In this document: piece by piece, positions 2,621-31,797 of the stretch | Layout: every line of letters starts with the position of its first letter | Numbering within the stretch: the stretch's first letter is position 1 | DNA from: Fastidiosibacter lacustris | GTDB taxonomy: Bacteria > Pseudomonadota > Gammaproteobacteria > Francisellales > Francisellaceae | Reading direction: 5' to 3' | Assembly (NCBI RefSeq): GCF_003428155.1 | Contig: NZ_QLIR01000013.1 | Span: 1 to 32,000, forward strand | Length of the DNA: 32,000 nucleotides | Notes under the pieces: generated by a model | What the model was told of the DNA's origin: nothing | Databases searched by the model: none | The model's input: the letters and a program-made list of their open reading frames with translations, nothing else | Made by a program: the position numbers and the translations under genes

Positions 2621-2664
2621 ATAGAAAGTGGCCAAGTGTTTGTAAAAAAAAAACGAGATAAAAA

Positions 2665-3816: not shown

Positions 3817-3834
3817 AGTCGAAGGAGAAGCGCG

Positions 3835-4818: not shown

Positions 4819-4857
4819 ACAAGCAAAAATACTGTTAAATAAAGCAAGGTAGAATAA

Positions 4858-5874
4858 ATGTCGACAAAGTTATTAGTTTTAGGTGTCAATGGTTTTATTG
4901 GCAGTAGTATGGTAGAAAAAATCTTGAAAGAAACGGATTGGGAAATTTATGGTATGGATTTATCCGATCATAAAGTTAAGGCATTTCTTGGTCATTCACG
5001 TCTACATTTTGTTAAAGACAATGTGTTAGAGAATATGCCATGGGTGGAAGAGCATATCAAAAAGTGTGATGTAATTTTTCCATTAGTTGCTGTTGCAAAT
5101 CCTGCATTGTATGTGTCTGATCCATTATTTGTTTATAAACTAGATTATGAATCAAATATCGATATCGTTAAGCTTTGTGTTAAGCATAAAAAGCATCTTG
5201 TTTTTCCATCTACCTCTGAGGTTTATGGTATGAGTAAAGATATTCCTTTTGATGAAGAGACAAGCTCGTTAGTAACTGGTCCAATCAATAAACAACGTTG
5301 GATTTATTCTTGTGTTAAGCAGCTTTTAGATCGTGTAATTTATGCCTATGGTATGCAAGAAAACTTAAATTATACCCTATTTAGACCATTTAATTGGATT
5401 GGACCCAAGCAGGATGAAATCAAGTCATCCCAAAAAGGTAGTGCTCGTGTATTGGCACAATTCGTTTCGAATATTATTGATGGTAAAGATTTACAACTTG
5501 TCGATGGAGGGAATCAACGTCGTTGTTTTACCTATATCGATGATGGGATCGATGCTTTGATTAAGATTGTAAAAAAACGTAATAATGAAGCACATAGACG
5601 TATTTTTAACATTGGCAATCCAGATAATGAGTATTCGATTAAAGTATTGGCAGAAATGACTATAGAAGCAATGAAGCGTTATCCTGAATATAAGGCACTT
5701 GCAGCATCAGTAAAAATCACTGCCACAACCGCAGGTAATTATTATGGGAATGGTTATCAGGATGTCGAGCGCCGTGTACCTTCAATTAAAAATGCAAGAA
5801 AATACCTTGATTGGTCACCAAAAGTATCAATGGAAGAAGCGTTACAAAGAACGTTGGATTACCATTTGGGCTAA
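4858..5874 (+). CDS. arnA: UDP-glucuronate decarboxylase, equivalent to the ArnA C-terminal dehydrogenase domain only (no formyltransferase domain)
   Basis: 338 aa. It aligns with E. coli ArnA residues from about 315 to the end: LVLGVNGFIGS, KKCDVIFPLVAVANP, FPSTSEVYGM, RWIYSCVKQLLDRVIYAYG, LFRPFNWIGP, RCFTYIDDGI, YYGNGYQDVERRVPSIKNA. The ORF begins directly at the Rossmann motif, so the N-terminal Fmt-like domain is absent. Confidence 0.88.
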   Translation: MSTKLLVLGVNGFIGSSMVEKILKETDWEIYGMDLSDHKVKAFLGHSRLHFVKDNVLENMPWVEEHIKKCDVIFPLVAVANPALYVSDPLFVYKLDYESNIDIVKLCVKHKKHLVFPSTSEVYGMSKDIPFDEETSSLVTGPINKQRWIYSCVKQLLDRVIYAYGMQENLNYTLFRPFNWIGPKQDEIKSSQKGSARVLAQFVSNIIDGKDLQLVDGGNQRRCFTYIDDGIDALIKIVKKRNNEAHRRIFNIGNPDNEYSIKVLAEMTIEAMKRYPEYKALAASVKITATTAGNYYGNGYQDVERRVPSIKNARKYLDWSPKVSMEEALQRTLDYHLG

Positions 5875-5989
5875 CGAAAAAGAAAGTCTCTTAGAATTTT
5901 TAATATTAACGATCGCGTTATTATGCAGTTAAGAAATTGGATACGTCTCAACTCAAAACCATCTCAAGCTAATGGGGCAACTTTAAAAC

Positions 5990-6757
5990 TTAACGATAAC
6001 AAATCGCAAGAGGTGCGTGATCTGAAAACCATTCATCCGTGTAGATGTATTCACTTATAACCTTTTCTTTCAAACAAGGTGAAATAAATTGATAATCGAT
6101 GCGCCAACCCACATTTTTAGCACGTGCTTGACCGCGATTTGACCACCAGGTATATTGATCAGGTTTTTGGTTAATAACCCTAAATGCATCTACCCAACCA
6201 ATGTTGTTAAAAACATGATCAAGCCAAGCACGTTCTTCAGGTAGTACACCTGATGTTTGTTGGTTTTGCTTCCAGTTTTTAATGTCAATTTCTTTATGAA
6301 CGATATTAATGTCACCACAGATAATAAAAGGCTTTTTTTGATTAATCTGTGTGATAAGTATATCTTGGTATTTGTTCAAAAAATCCATCTTATAAGCTTG
6401 GCGCTCATCACCACTAGACCCAGAAGGTATATAAATTGAAGCAATACTTAAATTGTCATAGTCAAATTGGATATAACGCCCTTCATCATCAGCCCAATCA
6501 ATACCAAGTTGCTGAATGACCTTATTAGGTTTACGTTTGGCATAGATAGCTACACCACTGTAACCTTTTTTGATCGCATCCGTAAAAGCATAATGGTAAC
6601 CTTTAGGAAAATAAATTGACTCATTTGCTAGTTGGTGGAATTGAGCTTTAGTTTCTTGGATACATAAGAAATCAGCATCTTGGTAATTGAACCAGTTTAA
6701 AAAGCCTTTTCTGATAGCAGAACGGATACCATTAGCATTAAATGATATTACTTTCAT
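5990..6757 (-). CDS. xthA: exodeoxyribonuclease III
   Basis: EEP-fold nuclease collinear with E. coli Xth: MKVISFNANGIRS, FLCIQETK, GYSGVAIY, IICGDINI, WWSNRG, RIDYQF, SDHAPL. The track ORF starts at a TTG at 6820. The homology-supported start is the ATG at 6757 (MKVISFN...). Confidence 0.9.
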   Translation of the reverse strand: MKVISFNANGIRSAIRKGFLNWFNYQDADFLCIQETKAQFHQLANESIYFPKGYHYAFTDAIKKGYSGVAIYAKRKPNKVIQQLGIDWADDEGRYIQFDYDNLSIASIYIPSGSSGDERQAYKMDFLNKYQDILITQINQKKPFIICGDINIVHKEIDIKNWKQNQQTSGVLPEERAWLDHVFNNIGWVDAFRVINQKPDQYTWWSNRGQARAKNVGWRIDYQFISPCLKEKVISEYIYTDEWFSDHAPLAICYR

Positions 6758-6776
6758 ATTTCTGTCCCCAAATAAA

Positions 6777-6799
6777 ACAAAAAAGCCCGCAATGCGAGC
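6777..6799 (-). terminator. intrinsic terminator-like hairpin after the Mip-like gene
   Basis: The minus-strand RNA reads GCUCGC-AUU-GCGGGC (6-bp stem with one G-U pair, at 6785-6799) followed by UUUUUUGU (6777-6784). It sits about 22 nt after the stop at 6821-6823. Confidence 0.5.
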
Positions 6800-6820
6800 T
6801 ATAAATAAGTGAATATTCAA

Positions 6821-7678
6821 CTATTTACTTGTGTTTTCCTTGGAGTCGTAACTGTCTTCTACTTTTTTATCAGTATCTGCTTTTTCAGTTTTAATTAGTT
6901 CAACTTTAAAACTTAATACTTGGTTCGGTCCGATTTGTGGTGGTGCCATTTCACCATAAGCTTGTGCTGGCGCACAGTATAAGATAACTGTAGAACCAAC
7001 TGGAATTTGACTAAGTGCATCTGTCCAGCATGGAATAACTTGATTTAAGGGGAAAGTAACAGACTTACCTGCCTTCTCAGAACTGTCAAACACTTTACCT
7101 AGAAGCTCGCCTTTGACAAGCTTAGCAGCAGCATCTTTAGTATCTTTAGCGTAGTCAGTAGCAGGAGTAGTACCAGTATAATTAACAGTCACTACATCAG
7201 TTTTAGAAGGAATTTCACCTTTACCTTTAGTAATAATTTGATAATAAATACCATCAGCAGCTTTCTTGACGGTTGCCATTTTAGCAATGTCAGCCATAAA
7301 CGTATCAGATGTTTTTAAGTTTGCTTCACTTTCAGCTTTCATTTTAGCTTGTGCTTTTTCAATCATTTCCATTTGGAAAGCTTGCATGGTTTCTTTAGAT
7401 TTGTCTTCACTAATTTTCGACTCTTTTCCAGATAAACCAGCTTTTAATCCTAAGTTAAGATCTTTGATATTCAACTTAATGTCTTGAGATTTAAAGCCTT
7501 TACCCATTTCATAACCGATGATATAACTAACATCATCCATATCGACTTTAGCGAGTTCAGCTTTCTTTTCAGCAACTGGCTTGTTTTTTGTTGCAGAGTT
7601 TGCGACTTGATCAGCAGCATAAGTTGTCATCGAACCAGCTAGAAACATTGCAGTTGTTAAAGCAATAATTTTTTTCAT
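6821..7678 (-). CDS. FKBP-type peptidyl-prolyl cis-trans isomerase, Mip/FkpA-like, secreted
   Basis: 285 aa with an AAGGAG Shine-Dalgarno sequence. It has a signal peptide (MKKIIALTTAMFLAGSMTTYAA), an N-terminal dimerisation/long-helix region, and a C-terminal FKBP domain (VTVNYTG...VFDSS, VTFPLNQVIPCW, AQAYG, LSFKVELI), collinear with Legionella Mip as I recall it. Confidence 0.85.
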   Translation of the reverse strand: MKKIIALTTAMFLAGSMTTYAADQVANSATKNKPVAEKKAELAKVDMDDVSYIIGYEMGKGFKSQDIKLNIKDLNLGLKAGLSGKESKISEDKSKETMQAFQMEMIEKAQAKMKAESEANLKTSDTFMADIAKMATVKKAADGIYYQIITKGKGEIPSKTDVVTVNYTGTTPATDYAKDTKDAAAKLVKGELLGKVFDSSEKAGKSVTFPLNQVIPCWTDALSQIPVGSTVILYCAPAQAYGEMAPPQIGPNQVLSFKVELIKTEKADTDKKVEDSYDSKENTSK

Positions 7679-7876
7679 ACTATCTCCTTAAAAAATTTAT
7701 CAGCGCTTTTAAAATTAAATTATTAGGACAACACATCCTAGGAATTGCTTTAGCAGAAGTCAATAAGTGTATGCACCAAAAGTGTGCAAAATTCCTGAGA
7801 TTTCAGATAGCAGAAAGTCTGTAAAATGGTTTGTGATGAGTATACAATGTTAGCATTGATTTTTGTGGAGATAGTA

Positions 7877-9418
7877 ATGGCAAAAAACACAACGGTGCTT
7901 GTTATCTTGGATGGTTGGGGATATCGTGAAGAAAACAAACATAACGCAATTAATAATGCAAACAAACCAAACTGGAATAATATTTGGCAGCATTCAACAC
8001 ACACCTTAATTAATGCATCCGGATTAATGGTTGGCTTACCTCAAGGGCAAATGGGTAATTCTGAAGTAGGACACATCAATATCGGTTCAGGAAGAGTGGT
8101 ATATCAAGAGTTAACGCGGATTGATAAAGCAATTGAAGATAAATCTTTTTATCACAATAAGGTATTGAATTACACAGTAAGTTCAGCTGTTATGGCAAAT
8201 AAAGCTGTTCATATTATGGGATTGTTATCACCAGGTGGCGTTCACTCACACGAAAGTCATATTCAAGCAATGGTGAAACTTGCTGAACAAAAAGGTGCTA
8301 AAAAAGTATATGTTCATGCTTTTTTAGATGGTAGGGACATGCCACCACGCTCAGCTGAGTTATCGATTAAAAAGATGGACAAATTGTTATCAGATTTAGG
8401 TGTGGGTTATATTGCCACAATCAGTGGACGTTACTTCGCTATGGATCGTGATAACCGTTGGGATAGAGTGGAGAAAGCTTACAATGCAATAATTAATGGT
8501 CAGGCAGAATTTTACGCAAATAGTGCGCAGGCAGCATTAGAGATGGCATACTATCGCAATGAAAGTGATGAATTTGTACAGCCCACAGCCATTCAAAAAA
8601 ATAAGCATAAAGTAACGATTGAAGATGGTGATACAGTTATTTTTATGAATTTCAGAGCAGATCGTGCAAGGCAAATGAGTTATGCTTTTACAGATGAGTA
8701 TTTTGTAGGGTTTGTGCGTAAACGCTTTCCAAAAACTCATTTTGTAAGCTTAACAAAATATGCCGACGATATTAAGGCGTCAGTTGCCTTTGAGTCTGAA
8801 AAGTTAACACATATACTAGGAGATGTGCTAGAGCAAAAGGGACTTACCCAATTGCGCATTGCTGAGACAGAAAAATATGCACATGTGACCTTTTTCTTTA
8901 ATGGAGGTCAAGAACGACCCTTTAAAGGAGAAGATCGTATTTTAGTACCATCCCCAAAAGTGGCAACCTATGACCTTAAGCCTGAAATGAGTGCTTATGA
9001 AGTTACTGATAAGTTAGTTAGTGCTATCAAATCCCAAAAGTATGATGTGATTATTTGTAACTACGCCAATTCAGATATGGTTGGACACACTGGCAATTAC
9101 GATGCCACAGTAAAAGCTATTGAAGCTTTAGATATTTGCTTAGGGCAGGTATCACAAGCAGTTAAAGAAATAAATGGTAACTTGTTTATCACAGCTGATC
9201 ATGGTAATGCTGATCAAATGGTTGATCCTGAAACGGGCAAAATACATACTGCGCATACTACTAATCCTGTTCCTTTTATTTATCAAGGTAGACACCATGC
9301 GGAAGTTACAATTAAAGAAGGGAAATTATCGGATATTGCACCTACGATTTTAGCGGTAATGGGGATTACTCAACCAAAAGAGATGACTGGCAGAGCAATT
9401 TTTAAGTTTGCAAATTGA
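7877..9418 (+). CDS. gpmI: 2,3-bisphosphoglycerate-independent phosphoglycerate mutase
   Basis: Collinear with E. coli GpmI: [97 protein letters not shown]. The start is set at ATG 7877 ([13 protein letters not shown]), which has a GGAGA Shine-Dalgarno sequence. The track ORF begins 17 codons earlier. Confidence 0.95.
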
Positions 9419-10711
<1,293 letters not shown>

Positions 10712-10715
10712 TACG

Positions 10716-10741
10716 AGATCTTCGACAATAGATCTTTGTGT
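10716..10741 (+). terminator. weak hairpin downstream of serS
   Basis: AGATCT at 10716-10721 pairs with AGATCT at 10730-10735 (6-bp stem, 8-nt loop), followed by TTGTGT. The stem is short and the U-tract is poor. Confidence 0.25.
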
Positions 10742-10972
10742 ATGGACCTTATGCTGGATCTAACAACAGTCATTATTTTGTTAATAATTTCCTGCAAGAC
10801 ACAGCGTGTTACAATTGCATGTGATAATGTACAAATGCTGGGATGCACGTCATAGTACAAACATTTATAGCTAAACGCTGGAAACACTTTTTATTGTGTT
10901 TGTATGCTTAGTTTTAAATTAACTCATGTTACAATGAGCTTAATTTTGTTAAGAATGAGTCTCATTTGTTTG

Positions 10973-11536
10973 ATGAAGAATGTGGCAATTGTTTATTTTA
11001 GTGGTTATGGTCATACCAAAAAGATAGCAGAGCATATTAAAATTGGCATTGAACAAAGTACAAAAGTATATGCAAGCTTAATAAATGTGGATGAGTTACA
11101 AGATGTGGATGCATTAAATGACTATGAAGCGATTGTTTTTGGTGCGCCAACTTATATGGGTTCTGTGCCTTATCAATTTAAGAAATTTATGGATGATGCT
11201 TCTAAAGTATGGCTTAAGAAGGCGTGGAAAGATAAACTTGCCGCGGGATTCACCAATTCTGGTGCTTTAAGTGGTGATAAATTTAACGTTTTGATGCAGC
11301 TTTGCACCTTTGCTTGCCAACATGGCATGCTTTGGTTATCGCTAGGTATTGACAATACTTCAGGACAAAATGAGTTTAGTACAGGTCATATCGAGGCACT
11401 AAATCGCATGGGAGGATCTTTGGGACTCATGACACAATCTGAAAATGACTCACCAGAAGTAACCCCTCCAATTGGAGATAAGCGTACGGCTGAATTATTT
11501 GGACAACGTATTGCACATTATGTAATAAAACTATAG
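10973..11536 (+). CDS. flavodoxin-like fold protein (WrbA-type NAD(P)H:quinone oxidoreductase family)
   Basis: MKNVAIVYFSGYGHTKKIAEHI matches the WrbA/flavodoxin FMN-binding N-terminus, and AIVFGAPTYMGS and GFTNSG follow. The start is chosen at ATG 10973; the track ORF has a 23-codon hydrophobic extension with no homology support. Confidence 0.7.
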   Translation: MKNVAIVYFSGYGHTKKIAEHIKIGIEQSTKVYASLINVDELQDVDALNDYEAIVFGAPTYMGSVPYQFKKFMDDASKVWLKKAWKDKLAAGFTNSGALSGDKFNVLMQLCTFACQHGMLWLSLGIDNTSGQNEFSTGHIEALNRMGGSLGLMTQSENDSPEVTPPIGDKRTAELFGQRIAHYVIKL

Positions 11537-11747
11537 TCAAATACTTAATATTTTTTAGCCATGCTTGTTGTTGTTTGCTTTGCATAAAGTAGCTACCATA
11601 CTAGTATTGAACAGCATATTGGTTTTGAGATGGTTGACTCATGTTTTGGTATCAGGGTTGTTTCTGTACAAAACCACCTCTTGATTTTAAGAACCAGAAA
11701 AAAATTAGAAAGGTTAACCCAAAATAAGGTAACGAAGGATATAAAGC

Positions 11748-12164
11748 ATGAATGATCATACAACTGCATTCAAAGTGTTGGAAAATTATGGGAATTTAGT
11801 TATTAGAACTGTACCAATGCCATCTGATTGTAATCATGGTGGCACTATTTTTGGTGGTTGGATACTCAGTCAAATAGACATAGGCGCAAGCCTTGCGGCA
11901 ATTCATTACAGTAGTGGGCGTGTTGTTACGAAGGCTGTAGAAAAGGTTACCTTTATTAAACCTATCCACGTTCATAACCAAGTTGATATTTATGCAAAAT
12001 TATCAAAAGTTGGTAACACTTCTGTAACTTTCGATGTTTATGTTTTTGTAAGTAGTCGAACAAGTATAAATGAATTAGCGGTTACTGCTAATATTGTTTT
12101 TGTGAGAATTGATGATAACCACAAACCTATAGGCATATCAAAACTAAAGAAAGAAAGTAACTAA
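11748..12164 (+). CDS. yciA: acyl-CoA thioesterase, YciA-like hot-dog fold
   Basis: 138 aa. LVIRTVPMPSDCNHGGTIFGGWILSQIDIGASL parallels E. coli YciA LVLRTLAMPADTNANGDIFGGWLMSQMD, and GRVVTKAVEKVTFIKP also matches. Confidence 0.8.
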   Translation: MNDHTTAFKVLENYGNLVIRTVPMPSDCNHGGTIFGGWILSQIDIGASLAAIHYSSGRVVTKAVEKVTFIKPIHVHNQVDIYAKLSKVGNTSVTFDVYVFVSSRTSINELAVTANIVFVRIDDNHKPIGISKLKKESN

Positions 12165-12170
12165 CAGTAC

Positions 12171-13913
12171 TCAGTAACAAGGAGCCTTTTGAAAAATACT
12201 ACTTTGCTTAATACAAACTTTTTGTAGAATACTTTCAATTGCACATGAAATTTCTTCTTTTATTTGCGTTTTGCGGCATTTGTATTCAATTACGTTGTTT
12301 TCAAGGCCACGCTCACCGATAATAAGCTGATGCGGAATACCAATTAAATCCGCATCAGCAAACATAATCCCCGCGCGTTCTTTGCGATCATCAAACAAAA
12401 CCTCAAAACCTGCTGCTCTTAGATCATTATACAATTTGTTTGCCTCTTCAAATACGCGTCCTGATTTGTGCATATTCATAGGAATGATAACAATATCGTA
12501 TGGGGCAATCTCTCGTGGCCAGATAATTCCATTTTCATCATGTGATTGTTCGATAGCAGCAGCAATTACGCGTGAAATACCAAAGCCGTAACATCCCATA
12601 ATCAAATCTTGCTTTTTGCCATTTTCATCTAAAATGCTTGCATTCATTACTTTGGAATAATGCTCGCCTAATTGAAAAATATGACCCACTTCAATGCCAT
12701 TTGTTTGCTGTAACCTACCATTCCCATCAGGAGAGAGATCTCCTATCACAACGTTACGAATATCTTCTACCACATAATCGTTGACGTCGCGTTGCCAATT
12801 TGCGCCAAATAAGTGAAAACCATCTTCATTTGCACCACAAACAAAATCGCTTAACATAGCCGCGCTATAATCAACGATAACAGTAATAGGCGAGTTAACA
12901 GGACCAAGTGAACCTGTAGTTGCACCATATACATGCTGGATATCAGCATCAGTTGCAAAATTAAAAGGTGCCGTGATTTGCGGAAGTTTGCTTACTTTAA
13001 TTTCATTGAGATCATGATCGCCACAGAGCACTAAAGCAAAGAATTTGTTACGGCTATCCTTTATCACGATTGTTTTAACTACTTGTGCTGCTGAAATAGA
13101 AAAAGCTTCGCATAGTTGAGTGATTGTTTTTAAATTTGGTGTCGCTTTTTTTGTTAACTCTTCTGCTGACTTTGCTCGCTTTGTTAAATCTGGCTTTAAA
13201 TATTCTGCCATTTCAATATTTGCCGCATAATCGCTTTGATCACTATAGCAGACAATATCTTCACCCACTCTAGCTAGTACCTGAAACTCATGAGTCTTAC
13301 TTCCTCCAATGGCACCTGCATCGGCATTAACGACACGAAACTCAAGGTTAATACGCTTCAAGATATTGCAGTAAGCAGCGTGCATTTTTTGATAAGTTTC
13401 CTCTAGGCATTTATAGCTATTGTGAAAAGAATAGGCATCTTTCATAATAAACTCACGTGCACGCATAACCCCAAAGCGTGGACGAATTTCATCACGAAAC
13501 TTAGTTTGTATTTGGTAGAGATTAAGAGGGAGTTGCTTATAGCTTTTGATTTCTTTGCGGGCAATATCAACAATAGGTTCTTCGTGTGTAGGACCATAGC
13601 AGAAATCACGATTATGACGATCTTGCATTTTCAAAAGCTCAGGACCAAATTTTTGCCAACGATGCGTTTCTTGTAAAAGCTCCGCAGGTAAGATACTCGG
13701 CATTAAAATCTCACTAGCGCCTGCTTTGTTCATTTCTTCACGAATAATGGTTTGTACTTTTTGTAGTACTTTCACGCCGGTGGGTAACCATTGGTAAATC
13801 CCCGAAGCAAGTCTACGAATTAAACCTGCTCTTAACATGTATTGATGGCTAATCAATTCAGCATCTTTAGGTATTTCTTTCTCGGTTGCAAGTAGGGTTT
13901 GTGAGACTCTCAT
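12171..13913 (-). CDS. proS: proline--tRNA ligase (bacterial type with INS editing domain)
   Basis: 580 aa: [78 protein letters not shown]. Confidence 0.97.
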
Positions 13914-13949
13914 AATTGATTTGTCAAAAAGGCAATAAGTATGCTTACG

Positions 13950-14201
13950 TTAGCTGGTTTTATGGTTTGGTTCAAGGGTATTTTCAGAATTTGTCGATTT
14001 TGGTTTATTGGTAAATAGCAAGTTGCGTAAGAAGGTATATAACACCATGAGAAGTGGTGCAAGATATACCCAATAAATGGCATGTCCTTTGACAATAATG
14101 CTGAAGTTATTGAAATAAAAAACGATCGTTAGCGTTGCAATAAAGGCAATGCAGGAAAGAAAGAAAATAGTATCGGCAACATAGCGTAGCTTTTGTTTCA
14201 T
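13950..14201 (-). CDS. hypothetical small membrane protein (2 TM)
   Basis: 83 aa with two hydrophobic helices. A strong AGGAGG Shine-Dalgarno sequence lies 8 nt upstream of the ATG at 14201, and the gene sits immediately upstream of proS on the same strand. I recognise no family. Confidence 0.55.
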   Translation of the reverse strand: MKQKLRYVADTIFFLSCIAFIATLTIVFYFNNFSIIVKGHAIYWVYLAPLLMVLYTFLRNLLFTNKPKSTNSENTLEPNHKTS

Positions 14202-14536
14202 GGTGAAACCTCCTGAATTAATTGGAAAATACTTTACTTCAGAATAAATGGGTAATTTATGTCTAGCATTTTAAAGATTAAAAATAGACTAGAAAGTAAA
14301 ATTACAGCAGGCGTGCAAAAAAGTTAATACTGAATTATTTTTGGAATTTTTGGTTGTGATATACAAAACAACAATCTGTCTTATACGTACGAAATGTGAT
14401 TGTGTCTAGGCATAATTATTCAGATAGATCAATTTAAACAATATAATCATTTACAAAAATAAAAAAAACGCAACCAAAAAAAACTTAATAGCTATAGCGA
14501 AAAACATTAAAATTATGTAAATAAACGTTATGGAAT

Positions 14537-19042: not shown

Positions 19043-19672
19043 TTACTTTTGCTTGTCAGAGATATTCGAAAATTGAATTAACATGTGATTGCCTTGTGCT
19101 TCATTGACTAATATACGCGTGACGTACTTCTCACCTATAATCTCAATGCTATCAATAGCTTTATTTAAAGGTGAGTCAATGGGTTTTAAGCCCAAGTGCC
19201 AATTATTATTACATTCGATAAAGTAGATATCAAAATATTGTTTTAATGCTTCTGTATTGCCTTTAAAAATCGATAAAAAAATATGGGTAAAAGAAAATAC
19301 AATCGGTTGTTCTTTTTTAGTAATGACCATTGCCTGTTTCCCTTCAATTGATTGTTGAATTTTATCTTCTGTGATCATCAGTATTGATTTAAAGGGTTTT
19401 TGTTGCAACCATTGTAAACCATCAGTTTTGGAAAGATGGAAAACACCACTGGAAATAAGTGGCTTTGATAAAAGCTTCATATAACGTGTTTGGGTAAAAT
19501 CACCATAAACATTATCAATTTTAGCCTGGGCATTTTGCACTTTCATAAAAGCAACTTCATTTTTCGCAGATAAAGGATGATAAAAAATACTGTTTTTGCT
19601 TGCAGCCAAGCTCCCATTAAAGAAAAAAATAAAAATTAAAGTAGGGAAAGTGATATGTATACGGAATTGCAT
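19043..19672 (-). CDS. LolA-fold periplasmic lipid/lipoprotein carrier-like protein (ApeL-like)
   Basis: 209 aa with a signal peptide (ITFPTLIFIFFFNGSLAAS). GDFTQTRYMKLLSKPLISSGVFHLSKTDGLQWLQQKPFKSILMI follows the LolA pattern (F.Q......L..P..S.G.F......L.W....P). It starts 1 nt after the upstream thioesterase stop. Confidence 0.65.
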   Translation of the reverse strand: MQFRIHITFPTLIFIFFFNGSLAASKNSIFYHPLSAKNEVAFMKVQNAQAKIDNVYGDFTQTRYMKLLSKPLISSGVFHLSKTDGLQWLQQKPFKSILMITEDKIQQSIEGKQAMVITKKEQPIVFSFTHIFLSIFKGNTEALKQYFDIYFIECNNNWHLGLKPIDSPLNKAIDSIEIIGEKYVTRILVNEAQGNHMLIQFSNISDKQK

Positions 19673-19673
19673 G

Positions 19674-20093
19674 TTAAAAACTCTTTATTTTTTCGATTAA
19701 ACACAAGGGTGAAACAAATTGTAGTTGTTGGGTTTTAAGATCAATAGCAAGTTGAGTAGTATGTCCCTTGGTGAGTTTTTGTTGGCTTGATTTATCGACA
19801 ATAAGATAGGCAATTTTCAGGCGATTCTGATACTCAATAATACTACTTACAACTTGAATAGTTTGCCCAAATACAGCAGGTCGAATATATTTAATCTGTA
19901 AATCGACGATTGGCCACATATAACCACTTGCTGCCATATCATTATAGTTATAACCTATTTCATTCAAAAGTTCGCATCGAGCGACTTCAAAGTACTTTAC
20001 ATAATGACCATGCCAAGCAATATGTAAGCTATCAATATCATAAAATGGAACACGTATCTCAGTTAAATGTGAAATGGTTTTGCTACTGATCAT
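19674..20093 (-). CDS. 4HBT/YbgC-type hot-dog acyl-ACP/CoA thioesterase (ApeK-like)
   Basis: IRVPFYDIDSLHIAWHGHYVKYFEVARCELL is the classic 4HBT N-terminal motif with its catalytic Asp. The start is set at ATG 20093, which overlaps the acyltransferase stop by 11 nt. The track ORF extends 29 codons further, into the upstream gene. Confidence 0.75.
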   Translation of the reverse strand: MISSKTISHLTEIRVPFYDIDSLHIAWHGHYVKYFEVARCELLNEIGYNYNDMAASGYMWPIVDLQIKYIRPAVFGQTIQVVSSIIEYQNRLKIAYLIVDKSSQQKLTKGHTTQLAIDLKTQQLQFVSPLCLIEKIKSF

Positions 20094-21030
20094 TCCTACC
20101 CCAAAAGTCAAAAAAATTGAACCATTGTGTTGGATATTGTATGCAATGCCAAGCAATAAAATCACTATATTGTTGTGCATATTGGTTTAATATAAGCTGG
20201 CGATTGTGACGAGGAAGCTTAATGCTTTGAGCAAATGACTCAAAAACAACATTAAAACGCTTTTTTTGTTTTAAGCATAGCATCGTATAGACCGGTGCTT
20301 GTAAAATTGCTGAAAGTATGAAAGGTCCTTGTGGCAAAATGCACTTTTCACCTAAAAACTCAACCCAAATAGTGTGATTAGGATGATTAACAGAGATGCG
20401 ATCACAGGCTATGATAATAAACTCACCTTGGTCAATTTTTTGTTGTAACTGAATGGCAAAAACAAGATCGATATGCTCAATTGAAATTAAACTCAATTGC
20501 GAATCAGCGTTAACTTGGGTCAACAACGTATTGAATTTCTGAGCATGCTGATTAAAGATTAAGGCATTAACTTTAAGTTTAGGTATCAAACCAGACAATG
20601 CGCGCATCACTTCAATATTGCCTAGGTGCGCACTAAAAATAATAGCCCCTTGTTTTTTATTAACCAGATCAAGTAAAAGCTCACGATTTGGAAAGTGTAA
20701 GTCATGACGCGTGATGATTTTATTCCATACTGCAACCTTGTCAATTAAGCTTTTACCAAAACTCATAAAATGGCGAAAAGGCTGTGGTTTTATGACTATA
20801 TTTTTTTGTGCAGCGTAACGTTGTAAATGTATAAAATATTGCCAAGAAGCTTTACGCGCACCACGTGAAAAAAGATAGAAATAAACTATAGCAGGGAACA
20901 TCAATACATAAGTTACCCGTCTACCAAGCAGTTTAAAACAGATAAGCATGAATTTAAGTCCTATTATGCTTCCTTTTTCAGGTAACTTTGACCAGTGTTT
21001 ATGCTGGCTACGACCTTGATTATTTGTCAT
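20083..21030 (-). CDS. LpxL/HtrB-family (lipid A late / lysophospholipid) acyltransferase
   Basis: 315 aa with an N-terminal TM anchor. SAHLGNIE corresponds to the H(x)4(D/E) box HxGNWE of LpxL-type enzymes, and the overall length and layout fit that family. Confidence 0.7.
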   Translation of the reverse strand: MTNNQGRSQHKHWSKLPEKGSIIGLKFMLICFKLLGRRVTYVLMFPAIVYFYLFSRGARKASWQYFIHLQRYAAQKNIVIKPQPFRHFMSFGKSLIDKVAVWNKIITRHDLHFPNRELLLDLVNKKQGAIIFSAHLGNIEVMRALSGLIPKLKVNALIFNQHAQKFNTLLTQVNADSQLSLISIEHIDLVFAIQLQQKIDQGEFIIIACDRISVNHPNHTIWVEFLGEKCILPQGPFILSAILQAPVYTMLCLKQKKRFNVVFESFAQSIKLPRHNRQLILNQYAQQYSDFIAWHCIQYPTQWFNFFDFWGRNDQ

Positions 21031-21766
21031 GTCTATTTATTAATTTTTTTAGATGGAGGCGTGGCATATAGTAAAACATCGCAAAAAAAAGTCGAGTATG
21101 CAACCATGAGATCCGAACGTTATCTTTCCATAGACGAAAGTGAGATTGCCCAGATTTAGGGTAGTTAATTTGCGTTGGAATATATTTCACATCAATCGCT
21201 TGCCAATAAGCTTTTACCATGATTTCAATATCAAACTCCATTCGCCTACCAGATACTTTTGGTAATACGCTTTGTAAAGGATTTAAGGGGTAGATGCGAA
21301 AGCCACACATTGATTCAACAAGTCTTGTGCTCCACGTTTCAATCGCCACCCAAAAGTTAGTGATTTTGCGACCGTGTAAGCGAGCTTTAGGCACACTTTT
21401 ATCATAAATTGACTTGCCAGAAATAAGGCTATTGGGGTGATATTGAAATAGTGTCAGAAACTTTGATAAGTCGTTTAAATCATGTTGGTGATCGGCATCG
21501 ACTTGAATTGCATGTGTATAGTGATGATGATACAAATACTGAAAGCCATTCATAATCGCTGCACCTTTGCCAGAGTTAAGTGCCAACGAAATAGACTTGA
21601 CCCATGAGTATTGCTGGCATATATGGTTAATTACGGCTTTGGTTTTTTGATCACTACCATCATCAACAATTAAGCAATTGATACCATAAACTGCAAGCTC
21701 AGAAACAACACTCACAAGTGTCTCACCATGATTATAAATTGGAATAAGAAAACAAGGTTTGGTCAT
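21020..21766 (-). CDS. family 2 glycosyltransferase
   Basis: CFLIPIYNHGETL...LIVDDGSDQKT...QVDADHQH are GT2 (GT-A fold) signatures including DxD. An ATGA overlap with the upstream dehydratase and an 11-nt overlap with the downstream acyltransferase support operon membership. Confidence 0.8.
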   Translation of the reverse strand: MTKPCFLIPIYNHGETLVSVVSELAVYGINCLIVDDGSDQKTKAVINHICQQYSWVKSISLALNSGKGAAIMNGFQYLYHHHYTHAIQVDADHQHDLNDLSKFLTLFQYHPNSLISGKSIYDKSVPKARLHGRKITNFWVAIETWSTRLVESMCGFRIYPLNPLQSVLPKVSGRRMEFDIEIMVKAYWQAIDVKYIPTQINYPKSGQSHFRLWKDNVRISWLHTRLFFAMFYYMPRLHLKKLINRHDK

Positions 21767-22110
21767 AACTGGATTTTTCCACTTGAATAGCGATTTTGAT
21801 CATCATCAGTATATTCAAATTGCAGCTGATGTTCAGATAATTCTATCTGCAAATTGAGCACCTTATTAGGTAAAATCACTTGGCTGAATTTAAGCTGCGG
21901 GATATGACGTACTTGCTTCTTGTCAAGCATTAAAAAACAAGAGCTAAACTCAATAACAAAATCTGTTTGGGCAATCCCTGGCAAAATAGGATTATCGGTA
22001 AAATGACCTTTAAAAAAAATCAATTTTTCATCAAACAGCAGCTTAAGCTTCACAACTGAAGACTTTTGTCGTTTTTCAATTGAATGTTCAAGAATTTCAG
22101 GATAGCGCAT
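21763..22110 (-). CDS. FabA/FabZ-like hot-dog dehydratase (ApeI-like)
   Basis: 115 aa. FFKGHFTDNPILPGIAQTDF matches the FabZ-type active-site motif HFP..P..PG. Confidence 0.65.
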   Translation of the reverse strand: MRYPEILEHSIEKRQKSSVVKLKLLFDEKLIFFKGHFTDNPILPGIAQTDFVIEFSSCFLMLDKKQVRHIPQLKFSQVILPNKVLNLQIELSEHQLQFEYTDDDQNRYSSGKIQL

Positions 22111-22118
22111 GAATTTCC

Positions 22119-22739
22119 TTAATATGTACTTTTAACAGCATCACAAAACGCTTTAATTTTGGCATGAGACTTAATGCCTTTTTGCGACTCAACACCGCCG
22201 CTGACATCAACCGCATAGGGTTGAATTTCAGCAATCGCATGAGTTACATTTTCAACCGTTAATCCACCTGCTAAAATGATACTGTTTCGCATTTCGTTAG
22301 GAATGATTGACCAATCAAATGTTTTACCTAAGCCACCATAGAAATTTCGATCATAAGCATCTAGCAATATGGCACGCGCGTTTTGATAATATTGTTTAGC
22401 TTTGTTGAGCGTTAAGCGGTCCTCAATGCGTAAAGCGCGTATATATGGAAACTGAAAACTGTTACAAAATTCAAGTTGTTCGTCACCATGGAATTGAATC
22501 ATACTAATACCAGCTGCAATTGCAGTTTTAATTTCATCTGGCATAGCATTAACGAAGAGTCCACAAATCGTCACAAAAGGTGGTAGCTTTTGAATAATTT
22601 TATGTGCCTCATTAATAGTAATAAAGCGAGGTGATTTGGTATAAAAAACAAAGCCTAATCCTTCGACTCCACATTCAAGCGCAAAAAGGGCATCTTCAAG
22701 GTTACGGATACCACAAATTTTAATTTTAGTTCTATGCAT
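22119..22739 (-). CDS. trpF: N-(5'-phosphoribosyl)anthranilate isomerase
   Basis: 206 aa: KICGIRNLEDA, GLGFVFYTKSPRFI, IQFHGDE, ILLDAY...GGLGKTFDW, ILAGGL, VDVSGGVE. This is a monofunctional PRAI TIM barrel. Confidence 0.9.
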   Translation of the reverse strand: MHRTKIKICGIRNLEDALFALECGVEGLGFVFYTKSPRFITINEAHKIIQKLPPFVTICGLFVNAMPDEIKTAIAAGISMIQFHGDEQLEFCNSFQFPYIRALRIEDRLTLNKAKQYYQNARAILLDAYDRNFYGGLGKTFDWSIIPNEMRNSIILAGGLTVENVTHAIAEIQPYAVDVSGGVESQKGIKSHAKIKAFCDAVKSTY

Positions 22740-22745
22740 GCCTTA

Positions 22746-23183
22746 CTACGCCATAAAGTTAATTAAGGCCGCTGCTACCATAGATGCAGTTGCTACACTC
22801 ACACCCGCTGTGGCAAGTAAGCGATCAACCTTGTCCAGGTGATACTTTTTACGTGTTTGCACTTCTAAAGCGTCATCACTTTCGGCAATCTCGCTTAATA
22901 TGGAGATGTATTGTGGAAATAAGGGTGGCTCATTAAATTCACCCGCTTCAAACCCTTCTGCCCAATAGTTATGTTCAATCGTGTTTACTGGAAAAGGGTT
23001 AAGTGTTTCTGACTTGTTTTTTTTGCCATGGACGTAACCAAACATCCAAATTTTTTCAAGCTCATCCAATGTATCTACTTGTGCAGATAAAATAAGCTTT
23101 AAGCGTGAGTCAATTTCATTTGTGTGCATAAAAACTTCATGTTCTATAACTAAAGTTAGTTGAGTATACCATAGCTTTAGCAT
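22746..23183 (-). CDS. hypothetical protein with C-terminal TM anchor
   Basis: 145 aa (127 aa if it starts at ATG 23129, MHTNEID...). It has an acidic soluble domain (WMFGYVHG, NYWAEGFEAGEFNEPP) and a single C-terminal hydrophobic helix (LLATAGVSVATASMVAAALINFMA). It ends 6 nt before trpF. I recognise no family. Confidence 0.45.
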   Translation of the reverse strand: MLKLWYTQLTLVIEHEVFMHTNEIDSRLKLILSAQVDTLDELEKIWMFGYVHGKKNKSETLNPFPVNTIEHNYWAEGFEAGEFNEPPLFPQYISILSEIAESDDALEVQTRKKYHLDKVDRLLATAGVSVATASMVAAALINFMA

Positions 23184-23324
23184 CTATCCACTAACTGTGT
23201 TTTATTCGTTAAATAGAACTACTAAAATTTTTTATATATCAATAATTAAATCATTTTACAGGTTTCCTTAAGTTTGTATTTTACGTGCTTTTATCTTCTT
23301 TTTTCTAGGCGAGGCTATCTACGT

Positions 23325-23353
23325 TTGACAATGCTGGGGATATAGGCTTAAAT
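23325..23353 (+). promoter_or_regulatory. candidate sigma70 promoter for gltA (TTGACA-17-TTAAAT)
   Basis: A perfect -35 TTGACA at 23325-23330, a 17-nt spacer, then TTAAAT at 23348-23353. Sequence match only. Confidence 0.35.
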
Positions 23354-23478
23354 ATGCCACATTAATTTTAGCTACCCGCACTCAACGGGGTTTAAGTCAC
23401 TTTATAAAACTTAAGGTCTATTTAGTTTAGAGTGATATTTTTTATAAATTTTAGAGTGCGATAATCATGGAGAACAAC

Positions 23479-27836: not shown

Positions 27837-28535
27837 GGCTCATTATTATGGATAGTGTTTTATTTTGTCATAAAAATATGTAAGATATTCAATCAAAAAT
27901 GGCGAAAATTGATGTATGTTGCAGGAATTGCAACTCAATAAAAACAGTTAAAGCAGGTAAAAACCAATTGAAATCTAGTCCAAGTGGTGCGCAAAGGTAC
28001 CGTTGCCTAGATTGTGGCAAATACTTTCAACTTGAATATAAAGCACTAGGTCGGCTGCCCAAGATAAAAGAAAGAATTATTGATATGTGTAGCAATAGTA
28101 GTGGTATACGAGATACAGCACGTGTTTTAAAAGTTAGCACAAAAACCGTGATTAATACGATAAAAAAAGCCTGTAGATTGTTGAAATGTAACTGGAACTT
28201 ATTAATGAATATAAGCTCAGTTGTTGTGATGCCACTTATGCTTGAGCTTGATGAGTAATGGTCATATTTTGGAAACAAAAAGAACCAACGATAGCTTTGG
28301 TTAGCTATCTGCCATAAGATAAGTCAAATTGTTGCCTATTATTTTGGTAAGCGTACGCATGAAAGCTCTGAATTACTTTTTATGAAAAGCATGGCAACGA
28401 TGCTCAAGCGCTTGGTAGAAGCAAAGCAATATAGTCACAAGTCCAAACGTCCTGGCTTACCAATTTATCTTATTGGCGTTTTTACAGATAAACAAGAAAT
28501 GTCAACGGCTTTAGAGTAAAAAAGTAGATTAAACC
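27837..28535 (+). mobile_element. decayed IS1-family insertion sequence (boundaries approximate)
   Basis: It encloses the InsA/InsB-like reading frame. The left-end region cattattatggatagtgttttat resembles the IS1 terminal region CAACTTATTGATAGTGTTTTAT as I recall it. The putative right end ...gtagattaaacc has a GGT terminus on the reverse complement. The terminal inverted repeats are poorly conserved, so both ends are uncertain by 15 bp or more. Confidence 0.6.
27899..28519 (+). pseudogene. IS1-family transposase (InsA-InsB fused frame) inactivated by two in-frame stops and an internal deletion
   Basis: The Zn-finger/HTH part is CRNCNS...QRYRCLDCGKYFQLEY and IIDMCSNSSGIRDTARVLKVSTKTVINTIKK (compare IS1 InsA QRYLCSHCRKTWQLQF and [31 protein letters not shown]). 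The same frame then reads LELDE*WSYFGNKKNQR*LWLAICHKISQIVAYYFGKRT (compare InsB [23 protein letters not shown]...VVAHVFGERT). The stops are TAA at 28256-28258 (where Q is expected) and TAG at 28292-28294 (where W is expected). About 35 residues that would carry the second catalytic Asp (TDGW region) are missing. Confidence 0.8.
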
Positions 28536-31134: not shown

Positions 31135-31797
31135 ATGAGGCAAAAATTTGAAAATATTCTCAAAGACACGCTCTTTATCATATTTAGCATTTTTGCTATT
31201 GATTTATGCTTTGCTAACAATAATACCGTCTCGCAGCCATCTGAGATAAATTATTCTGAACAAAGCCTTTTTGATAAACTTGCCAAGCTTAAAAACATGC
31301 ACGCAAGCTTCAATCAAACTATACTTAACCCACAACAAAAGCTTAAACAACAAAGCCAAGGTGAACTTTGGGTCAGTAAACCTAGCTTCTTTAAATGGCA
31401 GGTGCTAAGCCCACAAAAACAAATGCTATTGTCCAACGGTAAACAACTTTGGAATTACGACGAAGAACTTGAACAAATCACTATTAACGAAGTTCCTAAA
31501 AGCATCTCTCAAGCACCTTATCTTCTACTTTTAACAGGTGATAGCAAAACACTTAATCAGCTTTTTACTATTGAACGACTTAACGATAACACCTATCGCT
31601 TAACGCCAAAAGTCAAAGATCAATCCTTAATAAAATACATCAATATGACTTTTAAAGGCAATATTCCTACACATATGGTTATTGAAACAGAAACTGGGCA
31701 ATCTACCAACATTGAACTCTTAAATATATCAACTCAACTTATTCCTCAAAGTGTCTTTGAGTTCACACCTCCTCAAGGAGTTGATGTATTGGGATAA
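31135..31797 (+). CDS. lolA: outer-membrane lipoprotein carrier protein LolA
   Basis: 220 aa with a signal peptide. FNQTILNPQQKLKQQSQGELWVSKPSFFKWQV...LLSNGKQLWNYDEELEQI follows the LolA pattern. It occupies the conserved position 2 nt after ftsK. Confidence 0.9.
   Translation: MRQKFENILKDTLFIIFSIFAIDLCFANNNTVSQPSEINYSEQSLFDKLAKLKNMHASFNQTILNPQQKLKQQSQGELWVSKPSFFKWQVLSPQKQMLLSNGKQLWNYDEELEQITINEVPKSISQAPYLLLLTGDSKTLNQLFTIERLNDNTYRLTPKVKDQSLIKYINMTFKGNIPTHMVIETETGQSTNIELLNISTQLIPQSVFEFTPPQGVDVLG

What the first reader, a model, noticed from the sequence alone, without database searches (positions are those of the whole stretch)
19043..22110. Aryl-polyene-type tailoring/export module (DH - GT2 - LpxL-like AT - 4HBT TE - LolA-like) with no polyketide core
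Five intact minus-strand genes are packed as one translationally coupled unit. There is an ATGA overlap at 21763-21766, 11-nt overlaps at 21020-21030 and 20083-20093, and a 1-nt gap at 19673. Their products are a FabZ/ApeI-like dehydratase, a GT2, an LpxL/HtrB-type acyltransferase, a 4HBT thioesterase and a signal-peptide LolA-fold protein. This is the gene order of the ApeI-ApeJ-ApeK-ApeL segment of aryl-polyene/xanthomonadin-type lipid clusters. Nothing that builds the polyene is present in the 32 kb: no ketosynthase/CLF, ACP, ketoreductase or adenylating enzyme. The MMPL/RND exporter that usually follows the LolA-like gene is also missing. All five ORFs are open and tightly coupled, which argues against a decaying remnant. 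My working hypothesis is a self-contained module that draws on FAS-II 3-hydroxyacyl/enoyl-ACP, makes a glycosylated or acylated lipid, and hands it to a dedicated periplasmic carrier for delivery to the outer membrane.
Basis: partly seen in the sequence, partly recalled or inferred. Interest (0 to 1): 0.72.

Follow-up and report, generated by a model that had tools for sequence, protein, structure and literature searches.

The report
Aryl-polyene lipid cluster stripped of its polyketide core
Fastidiosibacter lacustris keeps five intact, selected genes from the lipid-attachment and export part of an aryl-polyene pigment cluster, plus a matching exporter gene elsewhere in the genome, while the pigment-building genes appear to have been lost, which hints that the lipid anchor pathway is useful without the pigment.

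Summary
Five minus-strand genes at 19043-22110 have exactly the overlaps described, and profile searches support all five family assignments: ApeI-like dehydratase, GT2, LpxL-type acyltransferase, YbgC/4HBT thioesterase and LolA-like protein. The window comes from Fastidiosibacter lacustris.

The same five-gene block stands alone in Cysteiniphilum (6 genomes), Facilibium and two MAGs. Its flanks differ between these genomes, and no ketosynthase, CLF, ACP, KR or adenylase lies within 10 kb. More distant relatives embed the block in progressively fuller clusters:
- Fangia has apeD through apeL.
- Three Thiotrichales strains have apeC through apeM.
- Francisella uliginis and all hits at 41% identity or less have full clusters.

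The block is therefore a vertically inherited, reduced APE cluster. dN/dS is 0.04-0.23, like the adjacent trpF, and the catalytic motifs are invariant.

The MMPL exporter is not missing from the genome: an ApeM orthologue sits alone on another contig. The block also abuts trpF (8-nt gap) and probably shares its operon.

A CLF profile search found no CLF in these genera. KS, ACP and KR could not be checked genome-wide.

Best reading: a pigment-free module that assembles and exports an acyl-HexNAc-phospholipid. This is a new variant of a known kind, of moderate interest.

The parts
21763..22110 (-). ApeI-like hotdog dehydratase (115 aa). The GHF...P..PG...Q.D motif has His36 and Asp50 at +14, the spacing known for FabA (own knowledge).
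   Evidence: Pfam PF22818 at 2.1e-11. His36 and Asp50 are invariant across core-less and full-cluster orthologues. 45% identical to Francisella uliginis in-cluster ApeI.
21020..21766 (-). GT2 glycosyltransferase (248 aa), equivalent to the N-terminal half of ApeJ. It is of the lipid-phosphate sugar transferase type.
   Evidence: Pfam PF00535 at 1.2e-15. Best solved relatives are DPMS, GtrB and ArnC. NCBIfam hits PpgS and ArnC. DDGS and DAD motifs are invariant. Fused to the AT in L014, L018, L019 and L021.
20083..21030 (-). LpxL/LPLAT-type acyltransferase (315 aa), equivalent to the C-terminal half of ApeJ. It has an N-terminal membrane anchor and an HX4E dyad (H135/E140).
   Evidence: Pfam PF03279 at 2.6e-8. 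H135 and E140 are invariant. The AF2 model (pLDDT 80.9) best matches LpxM and the sugar-6-O-acyltransferase PatA.
19674..20093 (-). ApeK-like 4HBT/YbgC-type thioesterase (139 aa).
   Evidence: Pfam 4HBT_2 at 3e-12. TIGR00051 scores 69.7 bits against a cut-off of 68.7. The D19/D21/H28 motif is invariant. The gene call starts at 20093.
19043..19672 (-). ApeL-like LolA-fold carrier (209 aa) with a signal-peptide-like N-terminus (MQFRIHITFPTLIFIFFFNGSLAAS). It is a paralogue of the housekeeping LolA at 31135-31797.
   Evidence: Pfam LolA at 1.8e-5 (above cut-off). NCBIfam LolA2_flexi at 5e-20. Aligned with ApeL orthologues. The true LolA is elsewhere in the window.
22119..22739 (-). trpF (phosphoribosylanthranilate isomerase). 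It lies directly upstream (8-nt gap) and is probably co-transcribed. It is not part of the module's chemistry.
   Evidence: Pfam PRAI at 5.6e-41. The same trpF-to-DH junction occurs in Cysteiniphilum. Facilibium has nuoN there instead.
22746..23183 (-). orf145, a conserved unknown protein and probably the first gene of the same operon. Not part of the module in Facilibium.
   Evidence: No Pfam or NCBIfam hit. 68-74% identical in Cysteiniphilum. dN/dS 0.01-0.06.
23184..23466 (.). Divergent intergenic region between orf145 and gltA. This is the most likely place for the operon promoter (inference).
   Evidence: It is the only sizeable gap upstream of the coupled genes. Promoter-like hits in the region are no more frequent than in shuffles, so no specific site is claimed.

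Best explanation
The block is a vertically inherited, reduced derivative of an aryl-polyene-lipid (APEL) gene cluster. An ancestor of Fastidiosibacter, Cysteiniphilum, Facilibium and Caedibacter lost the genes that build the polyene: KS ApeO/R, CLF ApeC, ACPs ApeE/F, KR ApeQ, DH ApeP and adenylase ApeH. It kept the lipid-anchor and export part, namely the ApeI-like DH, ApeJ split into GT2 and AT, the ApeK thioesterase and the ApeL LolA-like carrier. The ApeM MMPL transporter was also kept but now sits alone elsewhere in the genome. Proposed mechanism, inferred by analogy with the published APEL pathway: at the inner face of the cytoplasmic membrane the GT2 transfers a HexNAc from a UDP-sugar onto the phosphate of a diacylglycerol-phosphate lipid. 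The LpxL/PatA-like AT then esterifies the sugar with an ordinary acyl chain from FAS-II acyl-ACP in place of the aryl polyene. The DH and TE act on or proofread the acyl-ACP donor. The ApeM-type MMPL and the periplasmic LolA-like protein carry the product to the outer membrane. Shown here: gene content, orthology, phylogenetic pattern, purifying selection and intact catalytic motifs. Inferred: substrates, product and localisation.
For: Identity and anatomy. Stand-alone block with different flanks and no core genes within 10 kb: Cysteiniphilum (L003, L009, L010, L012, L015, L016), Facilibium (L005/L013) and MAGs L011 and L014. Graded series in relatives: Fangia has D-E-F-G-H-I-GT2-AT-K-L; three Thiotrichales strains have C through M; metagenome L006 has I through M; Francisella uliginis has the full R-Q-P-O / C through N cluster; every hit at 41% identity or less is a full cluster. 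In the AT neighbour-joining tree the five-gene clade is monophyletic (bootstrap 86) with Fangia as sister (78). Selection: dN/dS of 0.04-0.23 for all five genes within Cysteiniphilum, against 0.09-0.19 for trpF. Invariant catalytic residues. ApeM orthologue in F. lacustris and in Cysteiniphilum, Facilibium, Caedibacter and Fangia. It is solitary among housekeeping genes, 68% identical between Fastidiosibacter and Cysteiniphilum and 46% identical to the in-cluster Francisella ApeM. A CLF profile search returned 278 hits (best 120 listed), including related Thiotrichales strains, and no listed hit is named for Fastidiosibacter, Cysteiniphilum, Facilibium, Caedibacter or Fangia. Chemistry: ApeJ adds GalNAc to the lipid phosphate and then acylates its 6-OH (10.1101/2020.12.19.423268). 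The GT2 resembles lipid-phosphate GTs. The AT model resembles LpxM and PatA. Base composition is like the rest of the window.
Against: Genome-wide absence of KS, ACP, KR, ApeP, ApeH, ApeD, ApeG and ApeN was not tested. Only CLF was probed, with a word-seeded search that can miss divergent members, and 158 of its 278 hits were not listed. The relocated MMPL shows that genes of this system can be scattered in this genome. The 35.5 kb of the contig to the right of the window was not seen (searches failed). Some lineages are eroding the block: the TE is deleted in C. halobium, and the DH and most of the GT2 are deleted in Caedibacter taeniospiralis. So not every component is indispensable. ApeI is reported to work in heterocomplexes with other core enzymes (PMC8253772), and its role without them is unclear. 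No product is known.
Confidence: 0.6

Rival explanations
1. Ordinary split biosynthetic cluster. The polyketide core (KS, CLF, ACPs, KR, ApeP, ApeH) is still present elsewhere in the F. lacustris genome, and the organism makes a normal aryl-polyene lipid.
For: The ApeM MMPL is indeed on another contig, so the system is dispersed. The three Thiotrichales strains carry C through M without O through R nearby, and a CLF without a KS partner suggests split clusters exist in this order. The assembly is a draft, and most of it could not be inspected.
Against: The CLF profile search lists no CLF from any of the five genera, although it recovers CLFs of related strains and the same database holds their AT and MMPL proteins. 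In every fuller relative, apeC through apeH lie directly upstream of apeI, whereas here trpF is 8 nt upstream. The MMPL neighbourhoods in three genera are purely housekeeping. No remnants were found by lenient tblastn.
Confidence: 0.2
2. Non-functional relic. The five genes are left over from cluster decay and are on their way out.
For: The TE is reduced to about 39 codons in C. halobium. The DH is gone and the GT2 is reduced to about 20 codons in Caedibacter taeniospiralis.
Against: All five ORFs are intact in F. lacustris and in at least 8 other genomes across genera whose synonymous sites are saturated. dN/dS is 0.04-0.23, like trpF. Catalytic residues are invariant. Overlapping start/stop junctions are retained. 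The unlinked ApeM orthologue is also retained at 68% identity.
Confidence: 0.08
3. The module has been recruited to LPS or lipid A modification. The GT2 makes a polyprenyl-phosphate sugar and the LpxL-like AT adds a secondary acyl chain to lipid A or a related glycolipid.
For: The GT2's nearest characterised relatives are polyprenyl-phosphate GTs (DPMS, GtrB, ArnC, PpgS). The AT belongs to the LpxL/LpxM family by Pfam and by fold.
Against: Both proteins are orthologues of the two halves of ApeJ and are fused in several relatives. The substrate reported for ApeJ is a glycerophospholipid. NCBIfam lipid A acyltransferase equivalogs score far below their cut-offs (37 against 273 bits). The window already has a separate Arn/Flm-like set at 2249-5874. 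Linkage to a LolA-like carrier and an MMPL points to export of a free lipid rather than the Lpt route (inference).
Confidence: 0.1

Closest known systems
APE/APEL biosynthetic gene cluster of E. coli CFT073 and Xenorhabdus doucetiae (apeA-R)
   Same: It shares the gene order ApeI-ApeJ-ApeK-ApeL and has an ApeM-type MMPL in the genome. Family memberships match: PF22818, GT2 plus LPLAT, 4HBT and LolA-like. The predicted chemistry matches that reported for ApeJ, a sugar on a lipid phosphate followed by O-acylation of the sugar.
   Different: There is no KS, CLF, ACP, KR, ApeP, ApeH, ApeD, ApeG or ApeN in the locus. ApeJ is split into two genes. ApeM is unlinked. The block is embedded in a trpF operon. 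No aryl-polyene donor is apparent.
Full APE-type cluster of Francisella uliginis (CP016796, about 1.886-1.899 Mb), found here; no study of it was found
   Same: Its proteins are 40-49% identical to the window's five and to the F. lacustris MMPL, in the same order I-GT2-AT-K-L-M. By record names it comes from a related group (Francisella, with Fangia and Fastidiosibacteraceae).
   Different: It carries the complete core (R-Q-P-O and C-D-E-F-G-H) and ApeN. The window's genome retains only the I-to-L block plus a solitary M.
Flexirubin cluster LolA2 (NCBIfam NF053544) and related pigment-export LolA-like/MMPL pairs
   Same: The LolA-like protein matches LolA2_flexi at E=5e-20. The pairing of a LolA-fold carrier with an RND/MMPL exporter is the same.
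   Different: The score of 71.7 is below the equivalog cut-off of 125. No flexirubin or dialkylresorcinol genes are present.
Mycobacterial PatA and lipid A late acyltransferase LpxM
   Same: The AT model's best structural matches (E about 1e-9 to 3e-10, TM 0.55-0.58). PatA acylates the 6-OH of a sugar on a phospholipid-linked glycan (own knowledge), which is the same type of reaction proposed here. The HX4E dyad is conserved.
   Different: Sequence identity is only 12-16%. This is a resemblance of fold and reaction type, not orthology.

Membership tests
Aryl-polyene (APE/APEL) BGC, using the core set of Grammbitter et al. (KS apeO/R, ACP apeE/F, CLF apeC, DH apeI/P, KR apeQ, transporter apeM) | KS ApeO/ApeR in the cluster | tested here: not met
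   No ketoacyl-synt domain in any window ORF. tblastn with two reference clusters was negative. Genome-wide presence was not tested.
Aryl-polyene (APE/APEL) BGC | Chain-length factor ApeC (PF13723) | tested here: not met
   Absent from the window. The profile search of the 5.8-billion-protein database lists no CLF from Fastidiosibacter, Cysteiniphilum, Facilibium, Caedibacter or Fangia. That search is word-seeded and showed only 120 of 278 hits.
Aryl-polyene (APE/APEL) BGC | Dedicated ACPs ApeE/ApeF and adenylase ApeH | tested here: not met
   Absent from the window and from the flanks of the block in all five-gene relatives. Present in Fangia and fuller relatives. Genome-wide presence was not tested.
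Aryl-polyene (APE/APEL) BGC | Dehydratases ApeI and ApeP; ketoreductase ApeQ | tested here: inconclusive
   ApeI-like is present (PF22818). ApeP and ApeQ are absent locally. Genome-wide presence was not tested.
Aryl-polyene (APE/APEL) BGC | ApeM MMPL/RND transporter | tested here: met
   It is not in the window, but orthologue P0183 is on contig JAMBMW010000011.1 of the same assembly. It is 46% identical to the in-cluster ApeM of F. uliginis.
Aryl-polyene (APE/APEL) BGC | Attachment and export genes ApeJ (GT and AT), ApeK and ApeL in order | tested here: met
   Orthology to in-cluster genes at 40-49% identity. GT2-AT fusions occur in relatives.
Housekeeping LolA (TIGR00547) | Score above the equivalog cut-off; the genome's sole lipoprotein chaperone | tested here: not met
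   28.5 bits against a cut-off of 112. The genuine LolA is at 31135-31797, downstream of ftsK (Pfam 8.4e-33).
Lipid A late acyltransferase LpxL/LpxM | Equivalog-level sequence match; HX4D/E dyad; LPLAT fold | tested here: inconclusive
   The dyad H135/E140 is invariant and the fold matches LpxM. NCBIfam equivalogs score 37 or less against cut-offs of 209-273. It belongs to the superfamily but is not an LpxL orthologue.
FabZ/FabA of FAS-II | Equivalog-level match | tested here: not met
   FabZ TIGR01750 scores 31 bits against a cut-off of 155. The best match is ApeI-like PF22818.
YbgC/FadM acyl-CoA thioesterase subfamily (TIGR00051) | Score above the subfamily cut-off; N-terminal catalytic Asp | tested here: met
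   69.7 bits against a cut-off of 68.7. D19 and D21 are invariant.

The most novel reading that the evidence does not exclude
The anchor half of the aryl-polyene lipid pathway has a physiological role of its own. In Fastidiosibacteraceae it makes a colourless outer-membrane phosphoglycolipid, such as acyl-HexNAc-1-phospho-diacylglycerol, from ordinary FAS-II acyl chains. The lipid is exported by an unlinked ApeM MMPL together with the ApeL LolA-like carrier. This would be a natural experiment that separates the lipid scaffold and its export route from the pigment.
Probability: 0.35. Interest if true: 0.6.

Novelty: new variant of a known kind. Interest (0 to 1): 0.45.

Why it matters
[quoted passage not shown] The roles of ApeI through ApeN in lipid attachment and outer-membrane delivery are still largely inferred. 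A lineage that dropped the pigment machinery yet kept the attachment and export genes under purifying selection suggests the phosphoglycolipid scaffold or its transport route has value apart from the polyene. It also offers a simple genetic background for studying ApeJ, ApeK, ApeL and ApeM function, because Cysteiniphilum is culturable. The graded series from Francisella to Fangia to Fastidiosibacteraceae is a clear example of stepwise cluster reduction. It is also a caution for genome mining, because rule-based tools would either miss the block or mislabel it.

Tried and rejected
1. I tried to see beyond the right end of the window by exact look-up of the window's LolA and FtsK products. Neither is on record, so record positions 32497-68001 of the contig remain unseen.
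2. A single-sequence AlphaFold model of the LolA-like protein had mean pLDDT 31.6 and was unusable. The LolA assignment rests on the Pfam and NCBIfam hits only.
3. The promoter scan found 21 promoter-like sites against 21.7 expected, which is not informative. Terminator-like sites were 8 against 3.1 expected, but none is convincingly placed after the block.
4. Rfam and tRNA scans of the window found nothing.
5. Base composition gives no sign of recent transfer. The block has GC 0.32-0.37 within a window range of 0.30-0.43.
6. The literature searches found no report of core-less ape modules, of APE clusters in Francisella, or of secondary-metabolite analysis of Cysteiniphilum.
7. Lenient tblastn for remnants of lost ape genes around the block and around the MMPL found none.
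8. I considered and rejected the idea that the LolA-like gene is the housekeeping LolA, because the true one is at 31135-31797.
9. I considered whether the genes downstream of apeM in the Thiotrichales strains were divergent KS or KR genes. Pfam shows an opine-dehydrogenase and FecCD ABC-transport set instead.


Full report
**Source and observation.** The acyltransferase product matches, residue for residue, a protein of Fastidiosibacter lacustris GCA_024208055.1 on contig JAMBMW010000010.1 (68,001 bp). By my arithmetic from the coordinates, the window covers record positions 497-32496. The five minus-strand ORFs exist as described. The junctions read from the sequence are:
- DH/GT2: an ATGA overlap at 21763-21766.
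- GT2/AT: an 11-nt overlap at 21020-21030.
- AT/TE: an 11-nt overlap at 20083-20093.
- TE/LolA-like: a single nucleotide (19673).

The thioesterase junction requires the start at 20093 (139 aa), which is the deposited gene call. The only real upstream gap is the divergent region shared with gltA (23184-23466). The block therefore looks like the distal part of a seven-gene operon.

**Family assignments.** All five pass curated Pfam thresholds: ApeI-like PF22818, Glycos_transf_2, Lip_A_acyltrans, 4HBT_2 and LolA.
- NCBIfam adds LolA2_flexi (E=5e-20, below its equivalog cut-off) and YbgC/FadM TIGR00051 (above its cut-off). FabZ, LpxL and LolA equivalogs score far below their cut-offs.
- A profile of the GT2 finds DPMS, GtrB and ArnC as its nearest solved relatives. 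All three transfer a sugar to a lipid phosphate.
- An AlphaFold model of the AT built on 11 homologues (pLDDT 80.9) best matches LpxM and the mycobacterial sugar-6-O-acyltransferase PatA.
- The rest of the window is housekeeping: kpsF-like, an Arn/Flm-like set, mip, gpmI, serS, proS, pilB/pilC, gltA, uvrB, ftsK and the genuine lolA.
- No KS, CLF, ACP, KR, adenylase or MMPL was detected by Pfam or by tblastn with two reference clusters.

**Relatives.** A scan of one genome per species with an AT alignment returned the 80 best loci. I scored each for APE genes within 10 kb of the block. The pattern is graded.
- Five genes only, in differing contexts: six Cysteiniphilum loci, Facilibium, and MAGs L011 and L014. 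The block follows trpF in Fastidiosibacter and Cysteiniphilum and follows nuoN in Facilibium.
- Fangia hongkongensis has ApeD, two ACPs, ApeG and ApeH, followed by the five genes.
- Three 'Thiotrichales bacterium' strains have a methyltransferase, then ApeC through ApeM, followed by unrelated opine and iron-transport genes.
- Metagenome contig L006 has ApeI through ApeM only.
- Francisella uliginis has the complete R-Q-P-O / C-D-E-F-G-H-I-GT2-AT-K-L-M-N cluster.
- Every hit at 41% identity or less (Pseudoalteromonas, Colwellia, Moritella, Idiomarina and others) is a full cluster.

In a neighbour-joining AT tree the five-gene genomes form one clade (bootstrap 86) with Fangia as sister (78). L006 and the Thiotrichales strains group with Francisella uliginis (bootstrap 100). 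The simplest reading is vertical descent from a full cluster, with stepwise loss on the Fastidiosibacteraceae lineage and a separate reduction in the L006 lineage.

**Relic or functional.**
- Within Cysteiniphilum, where synonymous sites are not saturated, dN/dS is 0.10-0.23 for DH, 0.11-0.21 for GT2, 0.07-0.11 for AT, 0.04-0.13 for TE and 0.04-0.11 for the LolA-like gene. Adjacent trpF gives 0.09-0.19.
- Catalytic residues are invariant between core-less and full-cluster orthologues. These are DH His36/Asp50, the GT2 DDGS and DAD motifs, AT His135/Glu140 and TE Asp19/Asp21/His28.
- Against this, two lineages have eroded the block. C. halobium retains only about 39 codons of the TE. Caedibacter taeniospiralis, an obligate endosymbiont, has lost the DH and all but about 20 codons of the GT2.
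- AT and the LolA-like gene are retained in every genome examined.

**The exporter.** A profile of ApeM proteins from the closest relatives retrieved an MMPL from F. lacustris itself (P0183). It also retrieved MMPLs from Cysteiniphilum, Facilibium, Caedibacter taeniospiralis, Fangia and several Francisella species.
- In F. lacustris the gene lies alone on contig JAMBMW010000011.1. It is divergent from ddl-ftsQAZ and is followed by a Sel1/TPR gene and hisS.
- It is also solitary in Fangia, near hisS, and in Cysteiniphilum.
- It is 68% identical between Fastidiosibacter and Cysteiniphilum and 46% identical to the in-cluster ApeM of F. uliginis. That matches the divergence of the block proteins.
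- The exporter is therefore missing from the window but not from the genome.

**Is the core elsewhere?** This could be tested only in part. A profile of CLFs from the nearest relatives gave 278 hits, of which the best 120 were listed. They include related Thiotrichales strains, but no listed hit is named for Fastidiosibacter, Cysteiniphilum, Facilibium, Caedibacter or Fangia. The same database holds the AT and MMPL proteins of these genera. The search is word-seeded and did not list 158 hits, so it lowers the probability of a hidden core without excluding it. The 35.5 kb of the contig to the right of the window could not be fetched.

**Mechanism.** In Xenorhabdus the APEL end product is a 1-acyl-2-(conjugated acyl)-glycero-3-phospho-GalNAc that carries the aryl polyene on the sugar's 6-OH. 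A diacyl-G3P intermediate accumulates in an apeJ mutant. The authors therefore propose that ApeJ first adds GalNAc to the phosphate and then acylates the sugar from ApeE (10.1101/2020.12.19.423268). E. coli genetics place ApeD, ApeJ and ApeK in attachment and ApeL, ApeM and ApeN in export (PMC8253772).

Carried over to this module (inference):
1. The GT2 makes a HexNAc-phospho-diacylglycerol.
2. The PatA/LpxM-like AT esterifies the sugar with a housekeeping acyl-ACP chain.
3. The DH and TE condition or proofread the donor.
4. The unlinked MMPL and the secreted LolA-like protein move the lipid to the outer membrane.

The role of an ApeI-like DH without its usual partners is the weakest step.

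**Verdict.** It is wrong that the exporter is missing from the genome and that the module is self-contained. It is untested on genome-wide core absence and on the product. This is a new variant of a known kind, a natural core-less derivative of the APE/APEL cluster. I found no published description of such a module. Interest is moderate.

Noticed in passing
window 2249-5874 (+): An Arn/Flm-like set: a small EamA/SMR-like membrane protein (123 aa), a DegT/ArnB-type aminotransferase, a 327-aa GT2 (ArnC/FlmF-like) and an NAD-dependent epimerase/dehydratase. It is probably a polyprenyl-phosphate aminosugar pathway for envelope modification.
   Followed up: no
window 22746-23183 (-): orf145 has no Pfam or NCBIfam hit. 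It is conserved upstream of trpF in Cysteiniphilum (68-74% identity) with very low dN/dS (0.01-0.06, tighter than trpF) and has a hydrophobic C-terminal tail.
   Followed up: partly
window 27899-28258 (+): A lone IS1 InsA-like ORF (119 aa) lies between uvrB and ftsK. It has no InsB partner and is not called as a gene in the deposited annotation, which instead calls a 97-aa HTH_8 gene nearby.
   Followed up: no
window 31135-31797 (+): The genuine housekeeping LolA lies directly after ftsK (Pfam LolA 8.4e-33). The genome therefore has two LolA-fold proteins within 12 kb.
   Followed up: partly
window 13914-14536: A gene-free, AT-rich stretch of about 620 bp (GC about 0.30) lies between proS and a D-Ala-D-Ala dipeptidase gene. 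It has no Rfam or tRNA hit.
   Followed up: no
L016 10929-11045 (Cysteiniphilum halobium); L008 9919-9978 (Caedibacter taeniospiralis): The block is eroding in some lineages. C. halobium keeps only about 39 codons of the thioesterase. C. taeniospiralis has lost the DH and all but about 20 codons of the GT2, and its AT-TE-LolA remnant follows a polyprenyl synthetase gene.
   Followed up: partly
L020, L022, L023 (Thiotrichales bacterium 19S3-11, 19X7-9, 19S9-11), about 3000-14400: These carry half clusters: a methyltransferase, then ApeC-D-E-F-G-H-I-GT2-AT-K-L-M, followed by opine-dehydrogenase and FecCD ABC-transport genes. No KS, KR or ApeP lies within 10 kb. A CLF without an adjacent KS partner is odd.
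   Followed up: partly
L090 1-12917 (Francisella uliginis CP016796, about 1.886-1.899 Mb): A complete APE-type cluster (R-Q-P-O divergent from C-D-E-F-G-H-I-GT2-AT-K-L-M-N) in a Francisella species. ApeM homologues are also present in F. philomiragia, F. frigiditurris and Francisella sp. SYW-9. I found no paper in the held library that discusses APE clusters in Francisella.
   Followed up: partly
L088 10001-14507; L089 7415-13625: The solitary ApeM-type MMPL lies near hisS in both F. lacustris and Fangia. In F. lacustris a 193-aa Sel1/TPR protein sits between the two genes. Whether that protein relates to export is unknown.
   Followed up: no
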